Sequence record: MZ234008.1
Length of the DNA stretch: 45,019 nucleotides
Origin: Escherichia phage vB_EcoS-22664B1
Strand: one strand, 5' to 3'
Shown: in pieces, positions 1,719 through 29,577 of the stretch
Numbering within the stretch: position 1 is the stretch's first letter
Layout: the number at the start of each line of letters is the position of its first letter
The notes under the pieces: model-generated
Seen by the model: the letters and a program-made list of their open reading frames with translations, nothing else
Told to the model about the DNA's origin: nothing
Database searches by the model: none
Translations under genes and position numbers: made by a program

Positions 1719-1987
1719 TTTGGTTTGGTTTGGGGTGTGCGTCACTCTTTGTTGTGGTGCTGGCGCTGTTGGTATGGCTATTCCTGGTATGGCCCGCGGT
1801 GGAAGCTGCCAGCATTACCCGCATGACGTTCCAGATATACAAGCGCCGTGGCATAACGGAACACCCGACCAGGTTGCGCATGTGGTGGCTATGGTATCTG
1901 GATATGCTTGGAGGTCGGAGGTTTGAGGCCGTCCGGTCATCCGGGTGGGAATGGAAAGGCGTAGGCAAGTGGTCCATTTTCGATTAA
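1700..1987 (+). CDS. small membrane protein
   Basis: Start MLHDL with AGGGG RBS-like sequence 8 nt upstream; long hydrophobic stretch FWFGLGCASLFVVVLALLVWLFLVW; followed by terminator. Confidence 0.5.
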   Translation: MLHDLIFWFGLGCASLFVVVLALLVWLFLVWPAVEAASITRMTFQIYKRRGITEHPTRLRMWWLWYLDMLGGRRFEAVRSSGWEWKGVGKWSIFD

Positions 1988-2004
1988 ATATGCAAGCGTG
2001 ATAT

Positions 2005-2039
2005 AGTCCCAGTGAGCTAAAACTTACTGGGACTTTTTT
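2005..2039 (+). terminator. rho-independent terminator (agtcccagt...actgggact + T-run)
   Basis: 9-bp inverted repeat followed by TTTTTT directly read from sequence. Confidence 0.6.
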
Positions 2040-2330
2040 ATGGATAAGCTAAACGAGTGGTTATTCGCCCTCGCGTGTCTTGCAGGTGGCTTCGTTGGCG
2101 CTCGCATTCACGGTGAGGCAACGAAAGGGCCACTAAACTTTGTGCTGTTTATCGTGGTCGGCTTCTTGTGTGCCGTGTTCGGTGCACCTGCTATTGCTGA
2201 GTGGTTTAATCTAACCGGACCGAGAACTGTTGCCGGGCTTGGCTTCGTTACTGCCATCTTCTGGATGCCGGTAGCTGCCAGAATCCGTGAAGCAATTTCC
2301 TCGTTCCGTCTGCCGGGGAATGCAAAATGA
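2040..2330 (+). CDS. holin-like small membrane protein
   Basis: 96 aa, two to three hydrophobic helices, immediately upstream of endolysin; function by position. Confidence 0.5.
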   Translation: MDKLNEWLFALACLAGGFVGARIHGEATKGPLNFVLFIVVGFLCAVFGAPAIAEWFNLTGPRTVAGLGFVTAIFWMPVAARIREAISSFRLPGNAK

Positions 2331-2566
2331 TTATCGCCATCCTGTTATTAGTGATCGGGGCTTCGTCGCTGTATAACGTATACGCGCCATCCGTCCAGGA
2401 TGGCATTTGCGGACGGGTGCTCTACCTGCTTACAGCAATGACCTGTATTATTGGCCTGATGCAAACGGGGGACGTATCGAATACAGTCTGGTCCGTGCTA
2501 ATCTGGCTATTCGCATTACGCACACTGCGTAATGCTGTTTTAAATGGGGTAAAACATGCGATTTAG
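2327..2566 (+). CDS. holin/antiholin-like small membrane protein
   Basis: 79 aa, two hydrophobic helices, ATGA overlap with previous gene and overlap with endolysin start. Confidence 0.5.
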   Translation: MIIAILLLVIGASSLYNVYAPSVQDGICGRVLYLLTAMTCIIGLMQTGDVSNTVWSVLIWLFALRTLRNAVLNGVKHAI

Positions 2567-3047
2567 TGACAACGGTCTAAGATTTACGGCAGCGTGGGAG
2601 TCGTTCAGCCCAGTGCCGTATTTCGCGACTAAGAAGGAGCAGGCCCGCGGCTTGTACACCTGGGGCTACGGTCATACTGGCACTAATCCGCCACAGAGCA
2701 TTACCCGCGCGGAAGCGCTGGAGCTACTCAAGCGTGATGTGGCGTATGCCGAGAACTGGGTGAACAAGTACGCACACCCGAGCATCAATCAGGCGCAATT
2801 CGACGCGCTGGTGGATCTGGTAATCAATGCCGGTCAAGGTCCGATCGTACCGGATAACATTGCCAATGACTTCGATGACGCGGTGCGCCTGGGTGATTGG
2901 GCCAAAGTCCGTGCTACGCTGCCGCAGTTCCGCAAGCAAGGCGGTGAAGTGCTCAAGGGCCTGGTACGTCGTGCAATCGGCAGACAGGCGCTATTCGATG
3001 GTAAGCAGTGGGACGTTGCCGAGAAAATCGGTCGTAACGCGGCATAA
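2556..3047 (+). CDS. endolysin, lysozyme-like (GH24/T4-lysozyme-type muramidase)
   Basis: Motif ...WESF...GLYTWGYGHTG... resembles phage lysozyme catalytic region (E ... GYGHTG); located after holin candidates. Confidence 0.75.
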   Translation: MRFSDNGLRFTAAWESFSPVPYFATKKEQARGLYTWGYGHTGTNPPQSITRAEALELLKRDVAYAENWVNKYAHPSINQAQFDALVDLVINAGQGPIVPDNIANDFDDAVRLGDWAKVRATLPQFRKQGGEVLKGLVRRAIGRQALFDGKQWDVAEKIGRNAA

Positions 3048-3063
3048 TAAGAGGAAACACAGT

Positions 3064-3231
3064 ATGTTAAAAAGTATTCTTGATCATAACGCGGACGCGC
3101 TTGCCGCACTGGCTAAAACGGAAGACCCAGGCGCGCGCGCCATTATCGCGGACACTATCAGTCATGCGGGTGTCTTTGACGTGAAGCTGCCAAGCCCGCC
3201 ACCGCCGGAAGAACCAGGCCCAGCGGCATAA
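3064..3231 (+). CDS. hypothetical protein (55 aa, proline-rich C-terminus)
   Basis: AAGAGGA RBS-like sequence before ATG; followed by terminator at 3237-3262. Confidence 0.4.
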   Translation: MLKSILDHNADALAALAKTEDPGARAIIADTISHAGVFDVKLPSPPPPEEPGPAA

Positions 3232-3236
3232 ACACG

Positions 3237-3262
3237 AAGCCCGGTTAATTCCGGGCTTTTTA
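3237..3262 (+). terminator. rho-independent terminator (aagcccgg ttaatt ccgggctt ttttt)
   Basis: Perfect stem-loop plus T-run. Confidence 0.65.
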
Positions 3263-3265
3263 TTG

Positions 3266-3295
3266 CTTGACTTGCAACCAACATAAGGGCCATAC
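3266..3295 (+). promoter_or_regulatory. putative sigma70-like promoter (-35 TTGACT, 18-nt spacer containing TGCAACCAA, -10 CATACT)
   Basis: Hexamer matches read from sequence; spacer carries the recurrent GCAACCAA motif, with a second copy just downstream. Confidence 0.35.
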
Positions 3296-3327
3296 TGCAA
3301 CCAATCAACGAGAAGGAGTAATACACT

Positions 3328-3408
3328 ATGACACGCAATGATATTTATGTACTGGCAATCTGGTCCGCCGCCGCATTCATCGGTATGGCTATTTGCGAAT
3401 TGCTATAG
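3328..3408 (+). CDS. small hydrophobic peptide (26 aa, MTRNDIYVLAIWSAAAFIGMAICELL)
   Basis: Strong RBS-like GAGAAGGAG 8 nt upstream of ATG; not in ORF track because under 60 aa. Confidence 0.3.
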   Translation: MTRNDIYVLAIWSAAAFIGMAICELL

Positions 3409-3470
3409 CCCGCCGCCATAGGGACCGTGGTATATTGTCCTCGGTCCTCTCAATCAGGAAGTAAATTAAT

Positions 3471-4668
3471 ATGCACCCGCAAACTAAAATTACCGACGAG
3501 CAATTGATCGCTGAATTGCAATCTGGCACTACCTCGAAAGATATTGCGAAGAAATACGGCATTGCCCTTCGAAATGTCTATATGCGCAAAGCCCGCCTGT
3601 CGAAGAAAGGCATTGGTCACGGTAACGATGCCGTAATCCGTAAGCGCGTTGCCGATGGCTTCGGCGTTAAGCGTGTATCAGCCCTGGTGCGCGGCAATGG
3701 CGAAGAGGTCATGTCCTGGGTCATCACCGAGCAAGACAAGGAGCGCCAGCTTGAAGCAATGCGCGCCGTTGTCGAGGGCATGAATAGCGAAATCACACCG
3801 GCAGCACCAGTGAGCGCTCCGCCAGTCCCGATCCAGGCGCTTGACCTGCTTAACCTGTATACCGTGTCGGACTTCCACCTGGGAATGTTGGCGTGGGGCG
3901 AGGAGACTGGCGAGGACTGGGATATGGCAATCGCTGAAGACCTGTTCTACCGCTGGTTTGTCGAAGCCTTCGCCCGCGCACCGGACGCTGGAAGACCTGT
4001 TCTACCGCTGGTTTGTCGAAGCCTTCGCCCGCGCACCGGACGCTGGCACTGCCGTAATCAATATTCTCGGTGATATGGCGCATTTTGACAGCCTCGACGC
4101 CGTCACGCCAGCCAGTGGTCACGTACTGGACGCAGATACCCGCTACCAGAAACTGGTCCGCTACATGATTCGCATGGTGCGCAACGTGGTTGAACTGGCG
4201 CTGCAAAAACACCATAAGGTCAAACTGTTAATCGTCCAGGGTAATCATGATGAGTCCGGTATGATTTGGCTGGCTGAGATGTTCAATACCCTGTACGAGA
4301 ACGAGCCGCGCGTTGATGTGGACACGTCCCCGGACGTTTACAAAATGGTGCAGCACGGTAAAACAACGCTGTTCTTCCACCACGGACACAAAGCACGCTT
4401 TGACGCCATCGAACCGGTCATGATTTCTAAATTCAGACAGGCTTTCGGGTCCAGTGAGTACAGCTACGCGCACGTGGGCCACTTGCACCACCAGAAGATT
4501 GTTGAATCCCGCAACATGATTGTTGAACAGCACCGGACCCTTGCCGCGAAAGACGCATATGCGAGCCGCGGCGGTTGGATGTCTGGTCGTAGTGCTAACG
4601 TCATCACCTATAGCGCCAACTACGGCGAAGTAGCGCGCTTAACCATTAGCCCGGAAATGTTGAAATGA
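3471..4668 (+). pseudogene. HTH domain + calcineurin-like metallophosphoesterase gene, split by a 55-bp tandem duplication (frameshift)
   Basis: N-terminal HTH-like segment; metallophosphoesterase motifs SDFHLG, GDMAHFD, GNHDE, HHGH, GHLHH. ORFs 3471..4073 and 3841..4668 are the same gene in two frames; removing one 55-bp copy (3936-3990 or 3991-4045) restores one ORF of about 380 aa. Confidence 0.6.
3936..4045. repeat. perfect tandem duplication, 2 x 55 bp
   Basis: Unit gaagacctgttctaccgctggtttgtcgaagccttcgcccgcgcaccggacgctg occurs twice in tandem; cgctg microhomology at the junction. Confidence 0.9.
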
Positions 4669-4877
4669 TTAGACAAGTATTCATGAGCACGCAGGCCACC
4701 CGCCTGAAAGAGCTTCGCAAACAGCTTGAAGGCTTGCGCCGATTCGAACGAACGGCAGCGGCAATAGGCATGTCTATCAGTGAGCGGATCGAGATACTAT
4801 CGCAGATACGCTACACAGAAGGCGCTATAAGCGAAGTAGAAAGCATGTTGACCAGATACTACGGTCGAGCCGTTTAA
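4665..4877 (+). CDS. hypothetical protein (70 aa)
   Basis: ORF overlapping previous stop (ATGA); followed by terminator. Confidence 0.45.
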   Translation: MIRQVFMSTQATRLKELRKQLEGLRRFERTAAAIGMSISERIEILSQIRYTEGAISEVESMLTRYYGRAV

Positions 4878-14906: not shown

Positions 14907-15632
14907 ATGGGTTATCAACTTCCTAACGGGTCTAGCGTCCAGATTGGGTCCGTACTGGGCGACGGCATCGCTGTTACGGCAGCTACCAACGCCACCGCGT
15001 CGATCTCTGACCTCGCTACCGGTTGCGTTATTACCTGCGCGGAATCTCATGGTCTGGTTGTTGGTGATGTGGTTATGTTCACTAAAACCCCGTGGGTCCG
15101 TGCGCTAAACCGCGCGTTTATCGTTGGCGCAGTGTCTACCAACGATGTGACGCTGGCGCGCTTCGACTCCTCGGACGTCACCAAATATCCTACCGGTGCT
15201 TTTGCAGTAGGCACTCCGGGTGAAGTGGTGAAGGTGTCGAGCTTTATCGACTTCCCGTTTATCACCAACGTTGCCGTGTCGGGTGGCGACCAGCAGACGA
15301 CTACCTTCCAGCCGTTGCAGGTTAACACCGCGATCAGCCTGAACACCACGAAAAACCCGTTGGTCCAGACTTACACCTTCACCCACGACGAAGAAGACCC
15401 GATCCGCCCAATCCTGGAAGACCTGGACGACACGCAGAAGACCACCGTGATCAAGTTCACTAACCCAGCGGCAGCAAGCGGCAAAGGTGAAATTCGTATT
15501 TACCCGGCTAAGGTATCTTTCCAGAAGATTCCGTCCGCTGAAGTAAACAACGTTGAAACGGTACAATCCACTCTGACCATGCAGTCTGATATGGTTATCT
15601 ACCGTAAGGATCTGGTCGAGGCATTGTCTTGA
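14907..15632 (+). CDS. major tail protein
   Basis: 241-aa ORF with good RBS-like sequence, followed by terminator and then the G/GT chaperone pair and tape measure. Confidence 0.65.
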   Translation: MGYQLPNGSSVQIGSVLGDGIAVTAATNATASISDLATGCVITCAESHGLVVGDVVMFTKTPWVRALNRAFIVGAVSTNDVTLARFDSSDVTKYPTGAFAVGTPGEVVKVSSFIDFPFITNVAVSGGDQQTTTFQPLQVNTAISLNTTKNPLVQTYTFTHDEEDPIRPILEDLDDTQKTTVIKFTNPAAASGKGEIRIYPAKVSFQKIPSAEVNNVETVQSTLTMQSDMVIYRKDLVEALS

Positions 15633-15662
15633 TTTGGTCGCTTAAATAGCGAGTGTTAATAT

Positions 15663-25640: not shown

Positions 25641-25665
25641 AAGGGGCCATCCGGCCCCTTTTTTA
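25641..25665. terminator. rho-independent terminator (aggggcc atcc ggcccct + T-run), between convergent genes
   Basis: Stem-loop with T6 on + strand; the - strand gene 25663..26637 ends right beside it. Confidence 0.65.
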
Positions 25666-26637
25666 ATAGATATTAGGAATGACGAGTAACGGGGTGGGTA
25701 CGGCAATATTTTTGCCCGGCATTTGGAATTGCTGCCGTGAGTAGTTGCCAATGACGCGGTTTTTGGCGATGCGCACATTATTACCCGCCATTCGTATCCC
25801 GTTCATGCGCACATGGTTATAGCCGCTGTTGTTCTCAATGAGCGCACCGGTATATGAAAGCTGGATCAGACTATTACCGATGTGCTGGTCGCCGCCACCG
25901 ATATTAATCGTGCGGTCGTAGACAAACGGCTTGTTTACCGTCGAGAACGTGACCTGCCCCTGGTTGTTAGTCATGGTGATACCGGTCCCCGGTGAGGGCG
26001 GCGTATTGTTGAATATCACCAGGTCCATATCAACGGCAGCGCCTACGTCGTCAATCCCGCCATAGGACGCATTACGGACAATGATACTTCCGCCATCGAA
26101 GCCAACCGATACGTTGCCGTCGTCCCAGCGCGCGAACGGGACACCGCCGACGGGAAGCGGCATACTTCCGTTTACATGCACGCGCTGCGCATATCGGCAG
26201 GTCATTAGCCGTGCGACGTTGGATATTGCGGTGAAGTCCGTTGAGTTAGCTACCAGTAAGCCCGCATTGCGTGACCCCACCGGCAGCACTTCCATAATCA
26301 CCCCGCCCCATGTTGGAAGCCCGCTGTATGCGTTATAGGCATCCTCACCGCGCAAGGTGATTCCGCCATCCCCGTTACGTTGTATCGACGTCACATAAAA
26401 CGGGTCTGGCAAGACCAGGGTCTGGTCGAATACTTCCATCACTTCTACCGGATTAGTTAGGGCAACGACCAGTTCGGACCCCGGTGTCAGCGGTGTGTTA
26501 ATGGTCAGCGTCTTGTCAGACTGACAGCGCTGATTAAAGGTAGTGCAGAACGACGGAGCGCGAAGGCCCGCGGTTATCTCCATGACAGGTCTACCGTCGT
26601 TGTAGTCGATAAGTATTCCAGCACCCATTATTACCAC
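25663..26637 (-). CDS. hypothetical protein (324 aa), possible tail/receptor-binding-associated protein
   Basis: Intact - strand ORF between J-like gene and tail fibre; Gly/Asn/Thr-rich, beta-rich composition; function unknown. Confidence 0.5.
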   Translation of the reverse strand: MVIMGAGILIDYNDGRPVMEITAGLRAPSFCTTFNQRCQSDKTLTINTPLTPGSELVVALTNPVEVMEVFDQTLVLPDPFYVTSIQRNGDGGITLRGEDAYNAYSGLPTWGGVIMEVLPVGSRNAGLLVANSTDFTAISNVARLMTCRYAQRVHVNGSMPLPVGGVPFARWDDGNVSVGFDGGSIIVRNASYGGIDDVGAAVDMDLVIFNNTPPSPGTGITMTNNQGQVTFSTVNKPFVYDRTINIGGGDQHIGNSLIQLSYTGALIENNSGYNHVRMNGIRMAGNNVRIAKNRVIGNYSRQQFQMPGKNIAVPTPLLVIPNIY

Positions 26638-26852
26638 TCCCGTGATTTAACTGATACAGTACCTGAGAAATTGCCGTCGCTATCGGCAGATAGGCCAGTG
26701 AAGCGCATGTCCACGTCTCCGGCAGGGACTTTTTGCCCGTCAACATAACGCAACATGCAGCTTCCGTAAGCCACCGTAATGCAATCACCGTTGTTGCGTT
26801 CTACGGCACAACCGGACAAAAGAACAGCACAAATCATAATTAAAGTTTTCAT
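26631..26852 (-). CDS. small lipoprotein (73 aa; possible superinfection-exclusion lipoprotein)
   Basis: Start MKTLIMICAVLLSGC with lipobox LSGC and AGGAG RBS-like sequence; first gene of the two-gene - strand cassette. Confidence 0.6.
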   Translation of the reverse strand: MKTLIMICAVLLSGCAVERNNGDCITVAYGSCMLRYVDGQKVPAGDVDMRFTGLSADSDGNFSGTVSVKSREW

Positions 26853-26932
26853 GTTATCATCTCCTATATTTGGTTGAGTTTTAGTATTACACCGCTCGAT
26901 CAAGAATGCAACCAATTTATGAGGATTCAGCT

Positions 26933-28975
26933 ATGGCAGCGGGTACACTATCCGTAACGAATAACAGCACCGCGGTGACTGGAGACGGCACAACGCTTAC
27001 CGCGCTGAAGGCTGGCGACTTCCTGTCGCTGGTAGTAGGGCAAGTCCCTTACACTATTGCTATTGCATCCATTGAGAGCGACACCGCGCTTACACTGGCG
27101 CTGCCGTTCGATGGCCCAACGGCAACCGGCCTCGCATGGGATAGCGTGGCGCGCGATACCATGTCCCTTGCAACGATGGGCGTAACCGTCCAGGCGCAGA
27201 AAGCACTACGCTTGATGATCGCGGATGAAAACAACTGGCGTGCAATCTTCGGCGACGCTGAAGAAGTCACGGTAACGCTGCCAAACGGGCAAGTTATGCA
27301 GGGAATGTCATGGGGCTACCTGTCATCCTTGTTGAAGGAAGTAGACCCCGTCGAAATGCGCGACCTGCAACAACAAGCCGCCGCATCGGAAGCCGCCGCG
27401 CTGGTGTCGCGCAATGAGGCCGAAGGCTTCAAGAACGATGCCAATGCCATCAAGACGCAGACCGACCAAATCAAGACTGACACGCAGGCAATCCACGACG
27501 CCACCAATACGATCAAGACGCAGACCGACCAGATTAAGACCGATACGCAGTCTATCAAGGACCAGACCGACCAGATTAAGACGGATACTGGCGTTATTCG
27601 CGATGAAGCCAATACTGCGAAGACTGACGCGCAAGCCGCCAGCACTGCCGCGCAGGGATTTCGCGATCAGGCCGAAGAATGGGCGCAAAGCGTAAACGCG
27701 GATAATCTGCTAACTAAATCCGGCAACCTTGCAGGCGTTGCCGATGTGCAGACGTCGCGCACCAACCTCGAACTGGGGGAGGGTAACGAGCCTATTTTTA
27801 AGGGTGCTCTCGCTGTTAAATCAGCCCCCGACACCGTATCGGCACAGGGCGGAATGTTCCAGTCTAAGCTAAAGAATAGCAACGGTGAGGACGTGGTAAC
27901 GACGCAAAGCTACGCAGAAACACAACTAGGGACCGGAAAGCACACGATCGGCGTAATCACGCCTTCGGGGGCACATTACTATCAACTCGACGTCGAAGGT
28001 AACTTTAACGGATTCAAGCGCCTGTCGTCTGCGCAGGGTGGCGAATTACTTCTGAACGGCGTCGATAGTAACACCGTGCAGCTACTGTCGCTTAACCCAC
28101 CAAAGCCGAACGACTATACCGGATTCACGCGGTATAACTGGCAAAATAGCGCGGTGTTTACCGGGCCGATTCGTCAGGGAGGGACGGGGCTTGAAGCCTA
28201 TGAGGTCTACGTCCTGAATGCTGGCGTGGCGGAATGGCGCTACCGGTTTAGACCCGATGGAAAGATGTCCGCCAGACGACTTATCGCCGAAGGTTTCCAG
28301 ACCGGCTGGGACCAGCCTAACAACTACGGGGACAGCGGTGTGTGGCTATCTGACGTCGGAAATAACGACGGCGGCTGGGTTCCTGCAATCTCCTGGCAGT
28401 CCCAATCAACCGGCGGTTACCCTATCCGCGCCACGTGGGGGCTTATCTCTCAGGGCACGGCGAACTGGCCCCGTGCGGCATTGCGATGCCGAGGGGATGG
28501 CGAAAACTGGACAAACTTCGAGTTCGTCGTTAACAGTTGCGATATCCAGGTCAGCGGTACATTCGGCGCGTACACATTTTCCAAAGCGCCTACGTCCGAC
28601 CGTGACCTGAAGCACGATATTAAGTACACGGAAGGGAAAGAAAGCTACGATCGAGTGATGCAGTGGCTTCCCACAATGTTTAAGTATAAAGGGTCGGAAA
28701 TCCAGCGCTATGGCCTTATCGCGCAGGACCTGGTGAAAATCGATCCGCAATACGTGAAGATTATCCCCGGCGCACTTAAAAACCCGGACCTCGTAGGGAC
28801 TGAAGGATTCAAAGCCGAAGACGGCGACTACTACGACGACACGCTGGCACTTGACAGCAACGTCATGTTAACAGATATGGCGTGCGCGATGGTCTTCATG
28901 GGGCGTAAAGTGGAAGATATGCAGAAAGAACTGGAGGAATTGAAAGCTGCCGTAGCGGCACTGACCAAAGCATAA
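26933..28975 (+). CDS. tail fibre with C-terminal intramolecular chaperone (peptidase S74-like) domain
   Basis: C-terminus SDRDLKHDIKY...YGLIAQDLVKIDPQYV matches the auto-cleaving chaperone domain seen in T5 L-shaped fibres and endosialidases; central TDQIKTDTQ repeats; start MAAGTLSV with GAGGA RBS-like sequence. Confidence 0.8.
   Translation: MAAGTLSVTNNSTAVTGDGTTLTALKAGDFLSLVVGQVPYTIAIASIESDTALTLALPFDGPTATGLAWDSVARDTMSLATMGVTVQAQKALRLMIADENNWRAIFGDAEEVTVTLPNGQVMQGMSWGYLSSLLKEVDPVEMRDLQQQAAASEAAALVSRNEAEGFKNDANAIKTQTDQIKTDTQAIHDATNTIKTQTDQIKTDTQSIKDQTDQIKTDTGVIRDEANTAKTDAQAASTAAQGFRDQAEEWAQSVNADNLLTKSGNLAGVADVQTSRTNLELGEGNEPIFKGALAVKSAPDTVSAQGGMFQSKLKNSNGEDVVTTQSYAETQLGTGKHTIGVITPSGAHYYQLDVEGNFNGFKRLSSAQGGELLLNGVDSNTVQLLSLNPPKPNDYTGFTRYNWQNSAVFTGPIRQGGTGLEAYEVYVLNAGVAEWRYRFRPDGKMSARRLIAEGFQTGWDQPNNYGDSGVWLSDVGNNDGGWVPAISWQSQSTGGYPIRATWGLISQGTANWPRAALRCRGDGENWTNFEFVVNSCDIQVSGTFGAYTFSKAPTSDRDLKHDIKYTEGKESYDRVMQWLPTMFKYKGSEIQRYGLIAQDLVKIDPQYVKIIPGALKNPDLVGTEGFKAEDGDYYDDTLALDSNVMLTDMACAMVFMGRKVEDMQKELEELKAAVAALTKA
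27447..27590. repeat. imperfect tandem repeats inside tail fibre gene (cagaccgaccagattaagaccgatacg units)
   Basis: Three to four nucleotide repeats encoding (A/T)IKTQTDQIKTDTQ. Confidence 0.7.
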
Positions 28976-28980
28976 TTAGA

Positions 28981-29004
28981 AGGGGCCGTACGGCCCCTTT
29001 TTTA
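28981..29004 (+). terminator. rho-independent terminator (aggggccg ta cggcccct + T-run)
   Basis: Perfect stem-loop plus T6; the - strand gene 29002..29577 ends here. Confidence 0.7.
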
Positions 29005-29577
29005 GTTTGAGTTTTCCCAATCCATTTTGCGCCGCACCAGCGGACTCTCATAATATTCCTTGCCTTCTACTTCCACCAACGGCCAATCGTTCACGATTAC
29101 GTACGGTTCCGCAATATCCTCAATCACGCCGTGCGCGCTATGTTGTCCGAACGATACACCCACCAGGATAACACCGGCAACTCGACGGGTTAGATACTCG
29201 CGAGCGCAACGGGCTTCTACCAGTCCGCGACGGATGCCGCTGGTGGCTTTGACCTCGTAGGTCCAGACGGCGTCAATCATGTGCTCACGGAAGTCGGGGC
29301 CGGACTTAACCTTGCGCTTACCGACCATTATAATATCGCCGCGGTCGATAGTATTGGCGCTAAACAGGCCGGTACGCATAAGTAAGCCTTGCGGAATACA
29401 ACTGCGTCCGCCTGCCTGCCCTTCAAGGTACATGCCCGCAAACATCTCGCCCAGCACACCGACAAGACGGCTTTGCTTGCACGCGTCAGACTTTAAGCGC
29501 CACTGGTCAAACTCGACGCTTGCTAACATTGCCGCGATGTGGAATTGTTTACCGGTTATTTCGTATTCGCCGTACAT
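29002..29577 (-). CDS. hypothetical protein (191 aa)
   Basis: Intact ORF, last gene of leftward operon; no motif recognised. Confidence 0.5.
   Translation of the reverse strand: MYGEYEITGKQFHIAAMLASVEFDQWRLKSDACKQSRLVGVLGEMFAGMYLEGQAGGRSCIPQGLLMRTGLFSANTIDRGDIIMVGKRKVKSGPDFREHMIDAVWTYEVKATSGIRRGLVEARCAREYLTRRVAGVILVGVSFGQHSAHGVIEDIAEPYVIVNDWPLVEVEGKEYYESPLVRRKMDWENSN

What the first reader, a model, noticed from the sequence alone, without database searches (positions are those of the whole stretch)
26933..28975. Tail fibre with internal TDQIKTDTQ repeats and a self-cleaving S74-type chaperone domain
The fibre ends with a domain closely matching the intramolecular chaperone of T5 L-shaped fibres and endosialidases (SDRDLKHDIKY...YGLIAQDL), which is cleaved off after trimerisation. 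The shaft contains three to four nucleotide-level tandem repeats (27447-27590) that could vary in number. Combined with a separate J-like central fibre, the phage likely carries two receptor-recognition systems.
Basis: partly seen in the sequence, partly recalled or inferred. Interest (0 to 1): 0.4.

Follow-up and report, generated by a model that had tools for sequence, protein, structure and literature searches.

The report
Phage side fibre with self-cleaving chaperone
This is the ordinary lateral (side) tail fibre gene of a Dhillonvirus coliphage: anchor domain, coiled-coil shaft built of 7-residue repeats, swappable receptor-binding domain, and a C-terminal self-cleaving folding chaperone, an architecture already described for this phage group and for T5-like phages.

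Summary
The gene is real (26933-28975, +, 680 aa). It is 100% identical in nucleotide sequence to a gene of the deposited Dhillonvirus vB_EcoS-101114B2.

- **Chaperone domain:** the C-terminus (aa 555-680) is a genuine Peptidase_S74 / intramolecular-chaperone domain. It passes the Pfam threshold. The Ser555/Lys560 dyad is invariant in 67 homologues. The model's best structural matches are the MyRF ICA domain and the K1F endosialidase chaperone.
- **"Closely matching T5 pb1/endosialidase" is overstated:** pairwise alignments to both are non-significant. Real homology is to the L-shaped fibres of other T5-like phages (VEc33 48% over 422 aa; DT57C LtfA).
- **Repeats:** the "TDQIKTDTQ repeats" are heptads (21 nt) of an uninterrupted ~16-heptad coiled coil with an Ile/Thr-Ala core. 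Relatives differ by whole heptads, but rarely (8 of 61 variants). The closest isolates do not differ at all.
- **Cleavage site:** by analogy with T5, cleavage should fall before Ser555 (Thr554|Ser555), not after it.
- **Two receptor systems:** this is already published for the genus. Central-fibre specificity is attributed there to the locus downstream of J; here that is a DUF6453 protein plus a lipoprotein.

Verdict: correct in the main, ordinary, low interest.

The parts
26933..28975 (+). Lateral tail fibre gene, 680 aa (73.5 kDa precursor)
   Evidence: ORF; start supported; PHROG 1980 tail fiber E 1e-115; 100% nt identity to MZ234014.1.
26921..26925 (+). Shine-Dalgarno GAGGA, 7 nt upstream of ATG 26933
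   Evidence: Read directly from the sequence.
26933..27346 (+). N-terminal virion-anchor region (aa 1-138): beta domain aa 1-72, then helix, hairpin, helix
   Evidence: AF2 model. Profile hits to the Depo32 N-terminus (E ~1e-38), T7 gp17 N-terminal part (7e-24), 'distal tail protein gp20' and an F2-pyocin side fibre. Median 88% identity across Dhillonvirus homologues.
27347..27703 (+). Coiled-coil shaft (aa 139-257), about 16 uninterrupted heptads; one core position is L/S/F/I/A/W (8 consecutive Ile), the other is A/T/V
   Evidence: Continuous helix aa 139-251 in the model. Heptad phase table. Weak phmmer matches to trimeric Lpp and T7 gp17.
27449..27583 (+).
   Evidence: TRF period 21 x 6.4 and period 63 x 2.1; the repeat finder family D1; motif count 3 against 0 expected.
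27704..27745 (+). Conserved junction motif NLLTKSGNLAGVAD (aa 258-271); nucleotide similarity to most Dhillonviruses ends at about this point
   Evidence: Megablast matches of most relatives stop at query nt 824-860. Consensus NLLxKxxNLSDLxD in A1. The same motif is in DT57C LtfA and VEc33.
27830..28576 (+). Variable receptor-binding domain (aa 300-548), all-beta
   Evidence: AF2 pLDDT about 90. Only 11 of 108 fibres with a Dhillon-type N-terminus share it; 56 fibres with other N-termini do. Together with the chaperone domain it is 48% identical to the Tequintavirus VEc33 L-shaped fibre (alignment aa 268-679). No convincing PDB fold match.
28592..28612 (+). Predicted autoproteolysis site T554|S555-D-R-D-L-K560 (Ser/Lys dyad)
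   Evidence: S555 and K560 are invariant in 67 sequences. Pfam profile position 1 falls on S555, as it does on Ser1264 of T5 pb1. T5 mechanism from PMC4690869.
28595..28972 (+). Intramolecular chaperone / Peptidase_S74 domain (aa 555-680, 14.3 kDa): alpha/beta body, long hairpin about aa 608-640, C-terminal helix aa 642-679
   Evidence: PDB sequence hits to DT57C LtfA (E 1.6e-4 single sequence; 3.8e-42 profile) and to S16 gp37 6f45 (1.2e-4).
28978..29001 (+). Intrinsic-terminator-like hairpin (10-bp stem, 6 GC pairs, T-run) directly after the stop codon, between convergent genes
   Evidence: A terminator is annotated at the same place in phage WFI.

Best explanation
The gene encodes the lateral (side) tail fibre of a Dhillonvirus siphophage, built from four modules.

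(i) aa 1-138: an anchor domain, related to the T7 gp17 N-terminal region and to siphovirus side-fibre anchors, that attaches the fibre to the tail tip.
(ii) aa 139-257: a coiled-coil shaft of about 16 heptads, roughly 17 nm long. Ile (or other hydrophobic residues) and Thr/Ala occupy the two core positions. The 'TDQIKTDTQ repeats' are simply these heptads.
(iii) aa ~300-548: an all-beta receptor-binding domain. It is the exchangeable specificity cassette.
(iv) aa 555-680: a C-terminal Peptidase_S74 intramolecular chaperone.

Proposed mechanism. The chaperone trimerises through its C-terminal helix and templates folding of the beta domain. Ser555, activated by Lys560, then cuts the Thr554-Ser555 bond. 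This releases a 14.3-kDa chaperone and leaves a 59.3-kDa mature fibre whose distal tip is unmasked. The mature fibre binds a surface glycan, most likely an O-antigen, reversibly. That lets the phage cross the O-antigen layer. The central fibre (J plus the DUF6453 protein) then engages a porin irreversibly.

Shown here: domain boundaries, family membership, the invariant dyad, the heptad register and the mosaic distribution of modules.
Inferred, not shown: trimer state, actual cleavage, and the identity of the glycan receptor.
For: Gene and start.

Tail fibre identity: PHROG hit; N-terminus 82-89% identical to fibres annotated as Dhillonvirus lateral tail fibres; profile hits to T7 gp17, the Depo32 anchor and an F2-pyocin side fibre.

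Coiled coil: continuous helix aa 139-251; single heptad register with I and T/A at the core positions; phmmer matches to trimeric Lpp and to T7 gp17; indels among relatives are always 7 or 14 aa.

Chaperone domain:
- PF13884 above threshold, starting at S555 just as it starts at Ser1264 of T5 pb1.
- S555 and K560 invariant in 67 homologues.
- Foldseek E 2e-4 to MyRF ICA and probability 0.98 to the K1F chaperone 3GW6.
- Sequence hits to DT57C LtfA and S16 gp37.

Cassette behaviour:
- The receptor-binding and chaperone part is 48% identical over 422 aa to the gene at the ltf position of Tequintavirus VEc33.
- Only 11 of 108 Dhillon-type fibres share the receptor-binding domain.
- Chaperone identity tracks the receptor-binding-domain type: median 64% in fibres that share it, against 37% across the Dhillon-type fibres.

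Mechanism and role, from the literature:
- T5 pb1 is cleaved at Thr1263-Ser1264, and the uncleaved protein fails to compete for the receptor (PMC4690869).
- Dhillonvirus lateral fibres are proposed to target the O-antigen (PMC8594841), and infection data for Bas83-85 support this (PMC11990801).
Against: No experiment on this protein exists.

The structure model is a monomer, so trimerisation, intertwining and active-site geometry are untested. In T5 the active site needs an Arg from a neighbouring chain.

The position that is Arg in most homologues ('GDGxxxR') is Thr527 here. The upstream oxyanion or 'sensor' residues therefore cannot be assigned.

Pairwise similarity to the two experimentally studied chaperones, T5 pb1 and K1F endoNF, is not significant.

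The receptor-binding domain has no recognisable solved-structure relative. Its ligand class (glycan or protein) is inferred from genus-level literature only.
Confidence: 0.82

Rival explanations
1. The S74-like domain is a degenerate, non-cleaving relic. It stays on the mature fibre as a structural cap or as part of the receptor-binding tip.
For: Similarity to the experimentally cleaved chaperones (T5 pb1, K1F endoNF) is only at profile level. The consensus Arg upstream of the site is Thr in this protein.
Against: Ser555 and Lys560 are invariant in 67 diverse homologues, as are R592, G594, I596, Y607, D641 and D648. That is the pattern expected under selection for catalysis. The domain is complete, covering Pfam profile positions 1-58 of 58. 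Its fold matches a self-cleaving ICA domain.
Confidence: 0.07
2. The nucleotide repeats form a hypervariable (slippage- or recombination-prone) locus that rapidly changes fibre length between isolates.
For: Relatives differ by exact heptad units at three or more positions. The 63-nt units are 79% identical.
Against: 53 of 61 distinct shafts have the same length. 101114B2, CHD2B1 and WFI (97.4-100% nt identity) have an identical gene length of 2070 nt from the upstream ATG. The DNA copies are too diverged for efficient slippage: 57% matches at period 21. The periodicity is explained by coiled-coil coding constraints.
Confidence: 0.05
3. The distal domain is an enzymatic depolymerase (a tailspike-like glycanase), not a binding-only fibre tip.
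Against: Those hits align only about 116-120 residues. By sequence, the Depo32 match covers only the N-terminal aa 1-205. The 250-aa distal domain gives no Pfam, NCBIfam or PDB hit to any glycosidase, lyase or beta-helix. It is far smaller than known tailspike catalytic domains.
Confidence: 0.05
4. This fibre, rather than the J / DUF6453 module, is the essential terminal receptor-binding protein and recognises an outer-membrane protein.
For: Some GenBank records call homologues 'tail tip protein'.
Against: In Dhillonviruses the porin specificity maps to the locus directly downstream of J, and lateral fibres are dispensable on rough strains (PMC8594841; PMC11990801). That locus is present here, as a DUF6453 protein plus a lipoprotein.
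Confidence: 0.05

Closest known systems
Dhillonvirus lateral tail fibre proteins (e.g. BASEL phages GeorgBuechner and Oekolampad; phage WFI gp36)
   Same: Same genomic position, after J, the receptor-binding-protein gene and the lipoprotein gene. N-terminal anchor and shaft are 77-89% identical. All end in PF13884. WFI, 101114B2 and CHD2B1 carry the same allele at 97-100% nt identity.
   Different: The distal 60% (receptor-binding domain plus cognate chaperone) is a rare allele in this genus. It covers at least 80% of the gene in only 4 of 141 matching phage records.
L-shaped tail fibres of T5-like phages other than T5 (Tequintavirus VEc33 gp135; DT57C LtfA, PDB 8HQZ chain d)
   Same: The receptor-binding and chaperone cassette is 48% identical over 422 aa to VEc33, E 3e-138. 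DT57C LtfA matches at E 1.6e-4 with the single sequence and 3.8e-42 with the profile. Both share the NL(S/A)DL junction motif and a heptad-rich shaft.
   Different: Different N-terminal anchor. The shaft is much shorter: 680 aa in total against 940-1076 aa.
T5 pb1 C-terminal intramolecular chaperone (residues 1264-1396; PDB 4UW8)
   Same: Same Pfam family, starting at the catalytic Ser. Same T-S-D-x-x-L-K motif. Same position at the extreme C-terminus. Presumably the same Ser/Lys autoproteolysis.
K1F endosialidase C-terminal chaperone (PDB 3GW6) and the MyRF ICA domain (PDB 7DC3)
   Different: 12-16% sequence identity. Those chaperones assist a triple beta-helix stalk; here the preceding domain is a different all-beta module.
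Trimeric Ala/Ile-zipper coiled coils (E. coli Lpp; T7 gp17 shaft)
   Same: Hydrophobic 3-4 spacing with small or beta-branched core residues. Weak direct phmmer matches, E 0.02-0.06.
   Different: The core here is unusually Thr-rich, with seven consecutive Thr at one core position. The oligomeric state was not tested.

Membership tests
Peptidase_S74 / intramolecular chaperone auto-cleavage domain (Pfam PF13884, MEROPS S74) | Match to the family HMM above the curated gathering score | tested here: met
   36.7 bits against a cutoff of 22, E 5.4e-9, profile positions 1-58 of 58. 39.3 bits on the isolated C-terminus.
Peptidase_S74 / intramolecular chaperone auto-cleavage domain (Pfam PF13884, MEROPS S74) | Catalytic Ser-x4-Lys dyad at the domain start | tested here: met
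   S555-D-R-D-L-K560. Both residues are invariant in the 67-sequence alignment A1. The HMM start falls on S555, as it falls on Ser1264 of T5.
Peptidase_S74 / intramolecular chaperone auto-cleavage domain (Pfam PF13884, MEROPS S74) | Characteristic fold: alpha/beta body, long beta-hairpin, C-terminal helix that forms the central coiled coil | tested here: met
Peptidase_S74 / intramolecular chaperone auto-cleavage domain (Pfam PF13884, MEROPS S74) | Trimer-dependent autoproteolytic release from the mature fibre | not testable with these tools
   Needs virion mass spectrometry or recombinant expression with S555A/K560A mutants.
Peptidase_S74 / intramolecular chaperone auto-cleavage domain (Pfam PF13884, MEROPS S74) | Upstream Arg/Asp 'folding sensor' residues supplied by a neighbouring chain (T5 Arg1250/Asp1239) | tested here: inconclusive
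   G521 and D522 are conserved, and R517/R519 are present. The consensus Arg of 'GDGxxxR' is Thr527 here. No trimer model was available.
T5 pb1 (L-shaped tail fibre of phage T5) orthologue | Significant sequence alignment to pb1 | tested here: not met
   Best BLASTP E 5.1. hhalign of A1 against pb1 residues 1200-1396 aligns 13 columns, E 0.11. It is not an orthologue of pb1 itself. It is homologous to the L-shaped fibres of other T5-like phages.
Dhillonvirus lateral tail fibre | Conserved N-terminal anchor and shaft, plus synteny downstream of the J, receptor-binding-protein and lipoprotein genes | tested here: met
   82-89% aa identity over the first ~280 aa to annotated Dhillonvirus fibres, and 77% to Oekolampad. 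Identical gene order in WFI and 101114B2.
T7 gp17-type N-terminal fibre adaptor | Profile-level homology to the gp17 N-terminal region | tested here: met
   Profile A1 against 7boz_a, E 7e-24, positions 16-401. With the single sequence the match is weak, E 0.022, and lies mostly in the coiled coil.
Trimeric alpha-helical coiled coil | Uninterrupted heptad register with hydrophobic or small residues at the two core positions | tested here: met
   Phase table for aa 145-257: one core position reads L S S F I I I I I I I I A A F W, the other A A A A T T T T T T T A A A A V. The model has a single helix over aa 139-251. The trimeric state itself was not tested.

The most novel reading that the evidence does not exclude
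Probability: 0.2. Interest if true: 0.35.

Novelty: already known. Interest (0 to 1): 0.12.

Why it matters
It matters little for basic science. The architecture (anchor, coiled-coil shaft, swappable receptor-binding domain, self-cleaving chaperone) and the two-receptor infection strategy of Dhillonviruses are already published.

The practical value is in annotation and engineering.
- Two of the three closest deposited records label this gene 'hypothetical protein'.
- The mapped module boundaries are the natural splice points for host-range swapping in phage-therapy candidates against uropathogenic E. coli. They are the junction motif at aa 258-271 and the cleavage site at T554|S555.
- The chaperone should be moved together with its receptor-binding domain, because chaperone identity tracks the receptor-binding-domain type.

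Tried and rejected
BLASTP and hhalign were not significant beyond short motifs. I rejected 'closely matching' and kept family-level membership only.
- **Single-sequence and profile searches of PDB sequences.** Neither found the T5 pb1 or endoNF chaperones at E <= 0.1. They found only DT57C LtfA, S16 gp37 and an uncharacterised fibre.
- **NCBIfam.** It gave only a trivial coiled-coil hit to SMC, far below its cutoff.
- **Repeats as a contingency or slippage locus.** Rejected: length is conserved in 53 of 61 variants and in all close isolates.
- **This allele targets O25b.** 101114B2, CHD2B1 and probably this phage were isolated on O25b ST131 hosts. But 101114BS4, from the same host as 101114B2, carries a different fibre. 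Korf et al. link O25:H4 specificity to the fibre of WF5505, not to that of WFI, which shares the present allele. The question is left open, not supported.
- **A separate downstream tail-fibre assembly gene.** None is present. The next gene is convergent and of unknown function.
Full report
**What is there**

The window is a Dhillonvirus (HK578-like siphovirus) genome. The region 26906-28975 is 100% identical in nucleotide sequence to Escherichia phage vB_EcoS-101114B2. It is 99.5% identical to CHD2B1 and 97.4% to WFI.

The ORF listing gives a + strand ORF at 26906..28975. It is preceded by GAGGA with 7-nt spacing, and it is the start annotated in both GenBank relatives. The product is 680 aa.

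The gene stands alone on the + strand. Upstream lies a minus-strand pair (DUF6453 protein and lipoprotein). Downstream lie convergent minus-strand genes. A strong terminator-like hairpin sits at 28978-29001.

**Checking the observation**

*Repeats.* Both observed features exist.
- TRF reports an array at 27449-27583, with period 21 x 6.4 copies (57% matches) or period 63 x 2.1 copies (77%).
- The repeat finder reports a 63-nt unit with copies at 79% and 62% identity.
- A 17-nt degenerate motif from the repeat occurs three times exactly, against 0.00 expected in shuffles.

Translated in register, the region is a run of heptads: IKTQTDQ, IKTDTQA, IHDATNT, IKTQTDQ, IKTDTQS, IKDQTDQ, IKTDTGV, IRDEANT and so on. 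The real unit is therefore 7 aa / 21 nt, not three or four clean tandem copies.

*S74 domain.* The motif TSDRDLKHDIKY...RYGLIAQDL sits at aa 554-600. Pfam PF13884 (Peptidase_S74, 'chaperone of endosialidase') matches aa 555-609 over the full profile length, at 36.7 bits against a gathering score of 22.

**How close is it to T5 pb1 and the endosialidase?**

It is not close. I fetched T5 ltf and K1F gene 17 and aligned them.
- BLASTP against pb1: best E 5.1. The only relevant segment is TSDRDLKHDIK ~ TSDARLKNDVR at pb1 residues 1263-1273, E 5.9.
- hhalign of a 67-sequence family profile against the pb1 C-terminus: 13 columns, E 0.11.
- K1F endoNF C-terminus: BLASTP E 0.051 over 25 residues, hhalign E 0.005 over 27 columns.

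Both the T5 C-terminus and this C-terminus nevertheless hit PF13884 with similar scores. In each case profile position 1 falls on the catalytic Ser. The relationship is at family level.

Genuine, strong homology exists to the L-shaped fibres of other T5-like phages.
- The gene at the ltf position of Tequintavirus VEc33 is 48% identical over 422 aa, E 3e-138.
- DT57C LtfA (PDB 8HQZ chain d) matches at E 1.6e-4 with the single sequence and 3.8e-42 with the profile.

**Anatomy**

An AF2 model built on 67 homologues has mean pLDDT 78.7. Together with profile searches it gives four modules.

1. *aa 1-138, anchor.* A beta domain (aa 1-72) is followed by a helix, a hairpin and a helix. The profile matches the N-terminus of the siphovirus depolymerase Depo32 (E ~1e-38), the T7 gp17 N-terminal part (7e-24), a 'distal tail protein gp20' chain and an F2-pyocin side fibre. 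This is the virion-attachment module. Its median identity across Dhillonvirus homologues is 88%.

2. *aa 139-257, shaft.* The model has one uninterrupted helix over aa 139-251. The heptad phase table has a single register. One core position reads L S S F I I I I I I I I A A F W. The position four residues on reads A A A A T T T T T T T A A A A V. This is the 3-4 hydrophobic pattern of a coiled coil. It also gives weak direct matches to trimeric Lpp and the T7 gp17 shaft.

3. *aa ~300-548, receptor-binding domain.* It follows a conserved junction motif, NLLTKSGNLAGVAD, and is all-beta with pLDDT about 90 (a separate model gave 87.3).

4. *aa 555-680, chaperone.* It has an alpha/beta body, a long hairpin (about aa 608-640) and a C-terminal helix (aa 642-679).

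**Is the chaperone functional?**

In the 67-sequence alignment the only invariant residues of the whole protein are S555, K560, R592, G594, I596, Y607, D641 and D648. S555 and K560 form the Ser-x4-Lys dyad.

In T5 the scissile bond is Thr1263-Ser1264. The Ser leaves with the chaperone, S1264A blocks cleavage, and only the cleaved protein competes with phage for the receptor (PMC4690869). By analogy:
- the cut here should be Thr554|Ser555, before the Ser and not after it;
- the products would be a 59.3-kDa mature fibre and a 14.3-kDa chaperone.

Cleavage itself, the trimeric state and the upstream 'sensor' residues could not be tested. The consensus Arg in 'GDGxxxR' is Thr527 in this protein.

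**Mosaic structure**

Megablast matches of most Dhillonviruses stop at gene nucleotide ~824-860, which is at the junction motif. Only four records carry the whole gene. I tallied 185 retrieved homologues.
- 108 have a Dhillon-type N-terminus (at least 70% identity).
- Only 11 of those 108 share a detectable receptor-binding domain.
- 56 proteins share the receptor-binding domain on other N-termini: Drexlerviridae, T5-like phages and prophages.
- Chaperone identity follows the receptor-binding domain. The median is 64% in fibres that share it, against 37% across the Dhillon-type fibres.

The receptor-binding domain and its chaperone therefore move together as a cassette. [quoted passage not shown]

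**Do the repeats vary?**

I used conserved anchor motifs on either side of the shaft. Of 61 distinct shaft sequences, 53 are 123 aa long. Seven are 116 aa, with deletions at three different positions, and one is 109 aa. Every difference is a multiple of 7.

The three closest isolates have identical gene length. Whole-heptad indels do happen, which preserves the coiled-coil register. The length is predominantly conserved, and the DNA copies are too diverged for a slippage-type hypervariable locus.

**Two receptor systems**

This is the published model for the genus. Lateral fibres bind the O-antigen as a facultative primary receptor, and the central fibre binds a porin (PMC8594841). Infection data for Bas83-85 support it (PMC11990801).

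Those papers place terminal-receptor specificity in the 'bona fide RBP locus' downstream of J. In this window that locus is:
- the DUF6453 protein (25663-26628, minus strand; E 8e-119 to PF20051), which is 33% identical to Rtp rtp44;
- a 73-aa lipoprotein (26631-26852, minus strand).

A 2025 modelling paper also notes that Dhillonvirus J lacks the Ig-like receptor-binding domain of lambda J (PMC12309495).

**Verdict**

- similarity to T5 pb1 and endoNF is only at family level;
- the repeats are coiled-coil heptads;
- cleavage should precede the Ser;
- the second receptor system is J plus the DUF6453 protein.

The feature is an ordinary member of a well-described kind. The exact protein is already in GenBank, and its cluster already carries the precomputed Pfam PF13884 domain. 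The only open points are the ligand and the fold of this particular distal-domain allele.

Noticed in passing
window 25663-26852 (- strand): A DUF6453 protein (PF20051, E 8e-119; PHROG 'membrane protein') lies next to a 73-aa lipoprotein with the lipobox LSGC and a weak Cor-like hit. Together they sit at the position of the 'bona fide RBP locus' that Maffei et al. link to porin specificity. The DUF6453 protein is 33% identical to Rtp rtp44. Which porin it targets is unknown.
   Followed up: partly
whole window (45,019 nt): The window length equals the genome size listed for Dhillonvirus 22664B1 (MZ234008) in PMC8614997. That phage, like 101114B2 and CHD2B1 (which carry the same fibre allele), was isolated on O25b ST131 uropathogenic E. 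coli. 101114BS4, from the same host as 101114B2, has a different fibre. Korf et al. link O25:H4 specificity to a different allele (WF5505).
   Followed up: partly
window 28978-29001: A GC-rich 10-bp-stem hairpin with a T-run sits 2 nt after the fibre stop codon, between convergent genes. It may act as a bidirectional terminator. WFI annotates a terminator at the same place, on the opposite strand.
   Followed up: no
window 26813-26860: Weak divergent sigma-70-like promoter matches (9 of 12 on each strand) lie in the 80-nt gap between the lipoprotein gene and the fibre gene. The number of such matches in the scanned region is not above chance.
   Followed up: no
window 29002-29577 (- strand): A conserved 191-aa protein of unknown function (phrog_10558, E 2e-118; 'gp26' in relatives) lies immediately downstream of, and convergent with, the fibre gene. 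It has no Pfam hit.
   Followed up: no
L004 (Tequintavirus VEc33) 1947-4769: The VEc33 L-shaped fibre shares the receptor-binding and chaperone cassette. Its shaft also contains similar heptads (LKSDVEQLKSDTQLIKD...), so this heptad style recurs across fibre families.
   Followed up: partly
window 26933-27346 (aa 1-138): The N-terminal anchor is homologous at profile level to the N-terminus of the Klebsiella K2 depolymerase Depo32 (7VYV, 7VZ3, 7LZJ), to an F2-pyocin side fibre and to T7 gp17. This points to a widely shared side-fibre docking module across siphoviruses, podoviruses and tailocins.
   Followed up: partly
window 15626-15642 (- strand): A single one-mismatch match to the heptad DNA motif lies elsewhere in the genome. 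It is probably chance.
   Followed up: no
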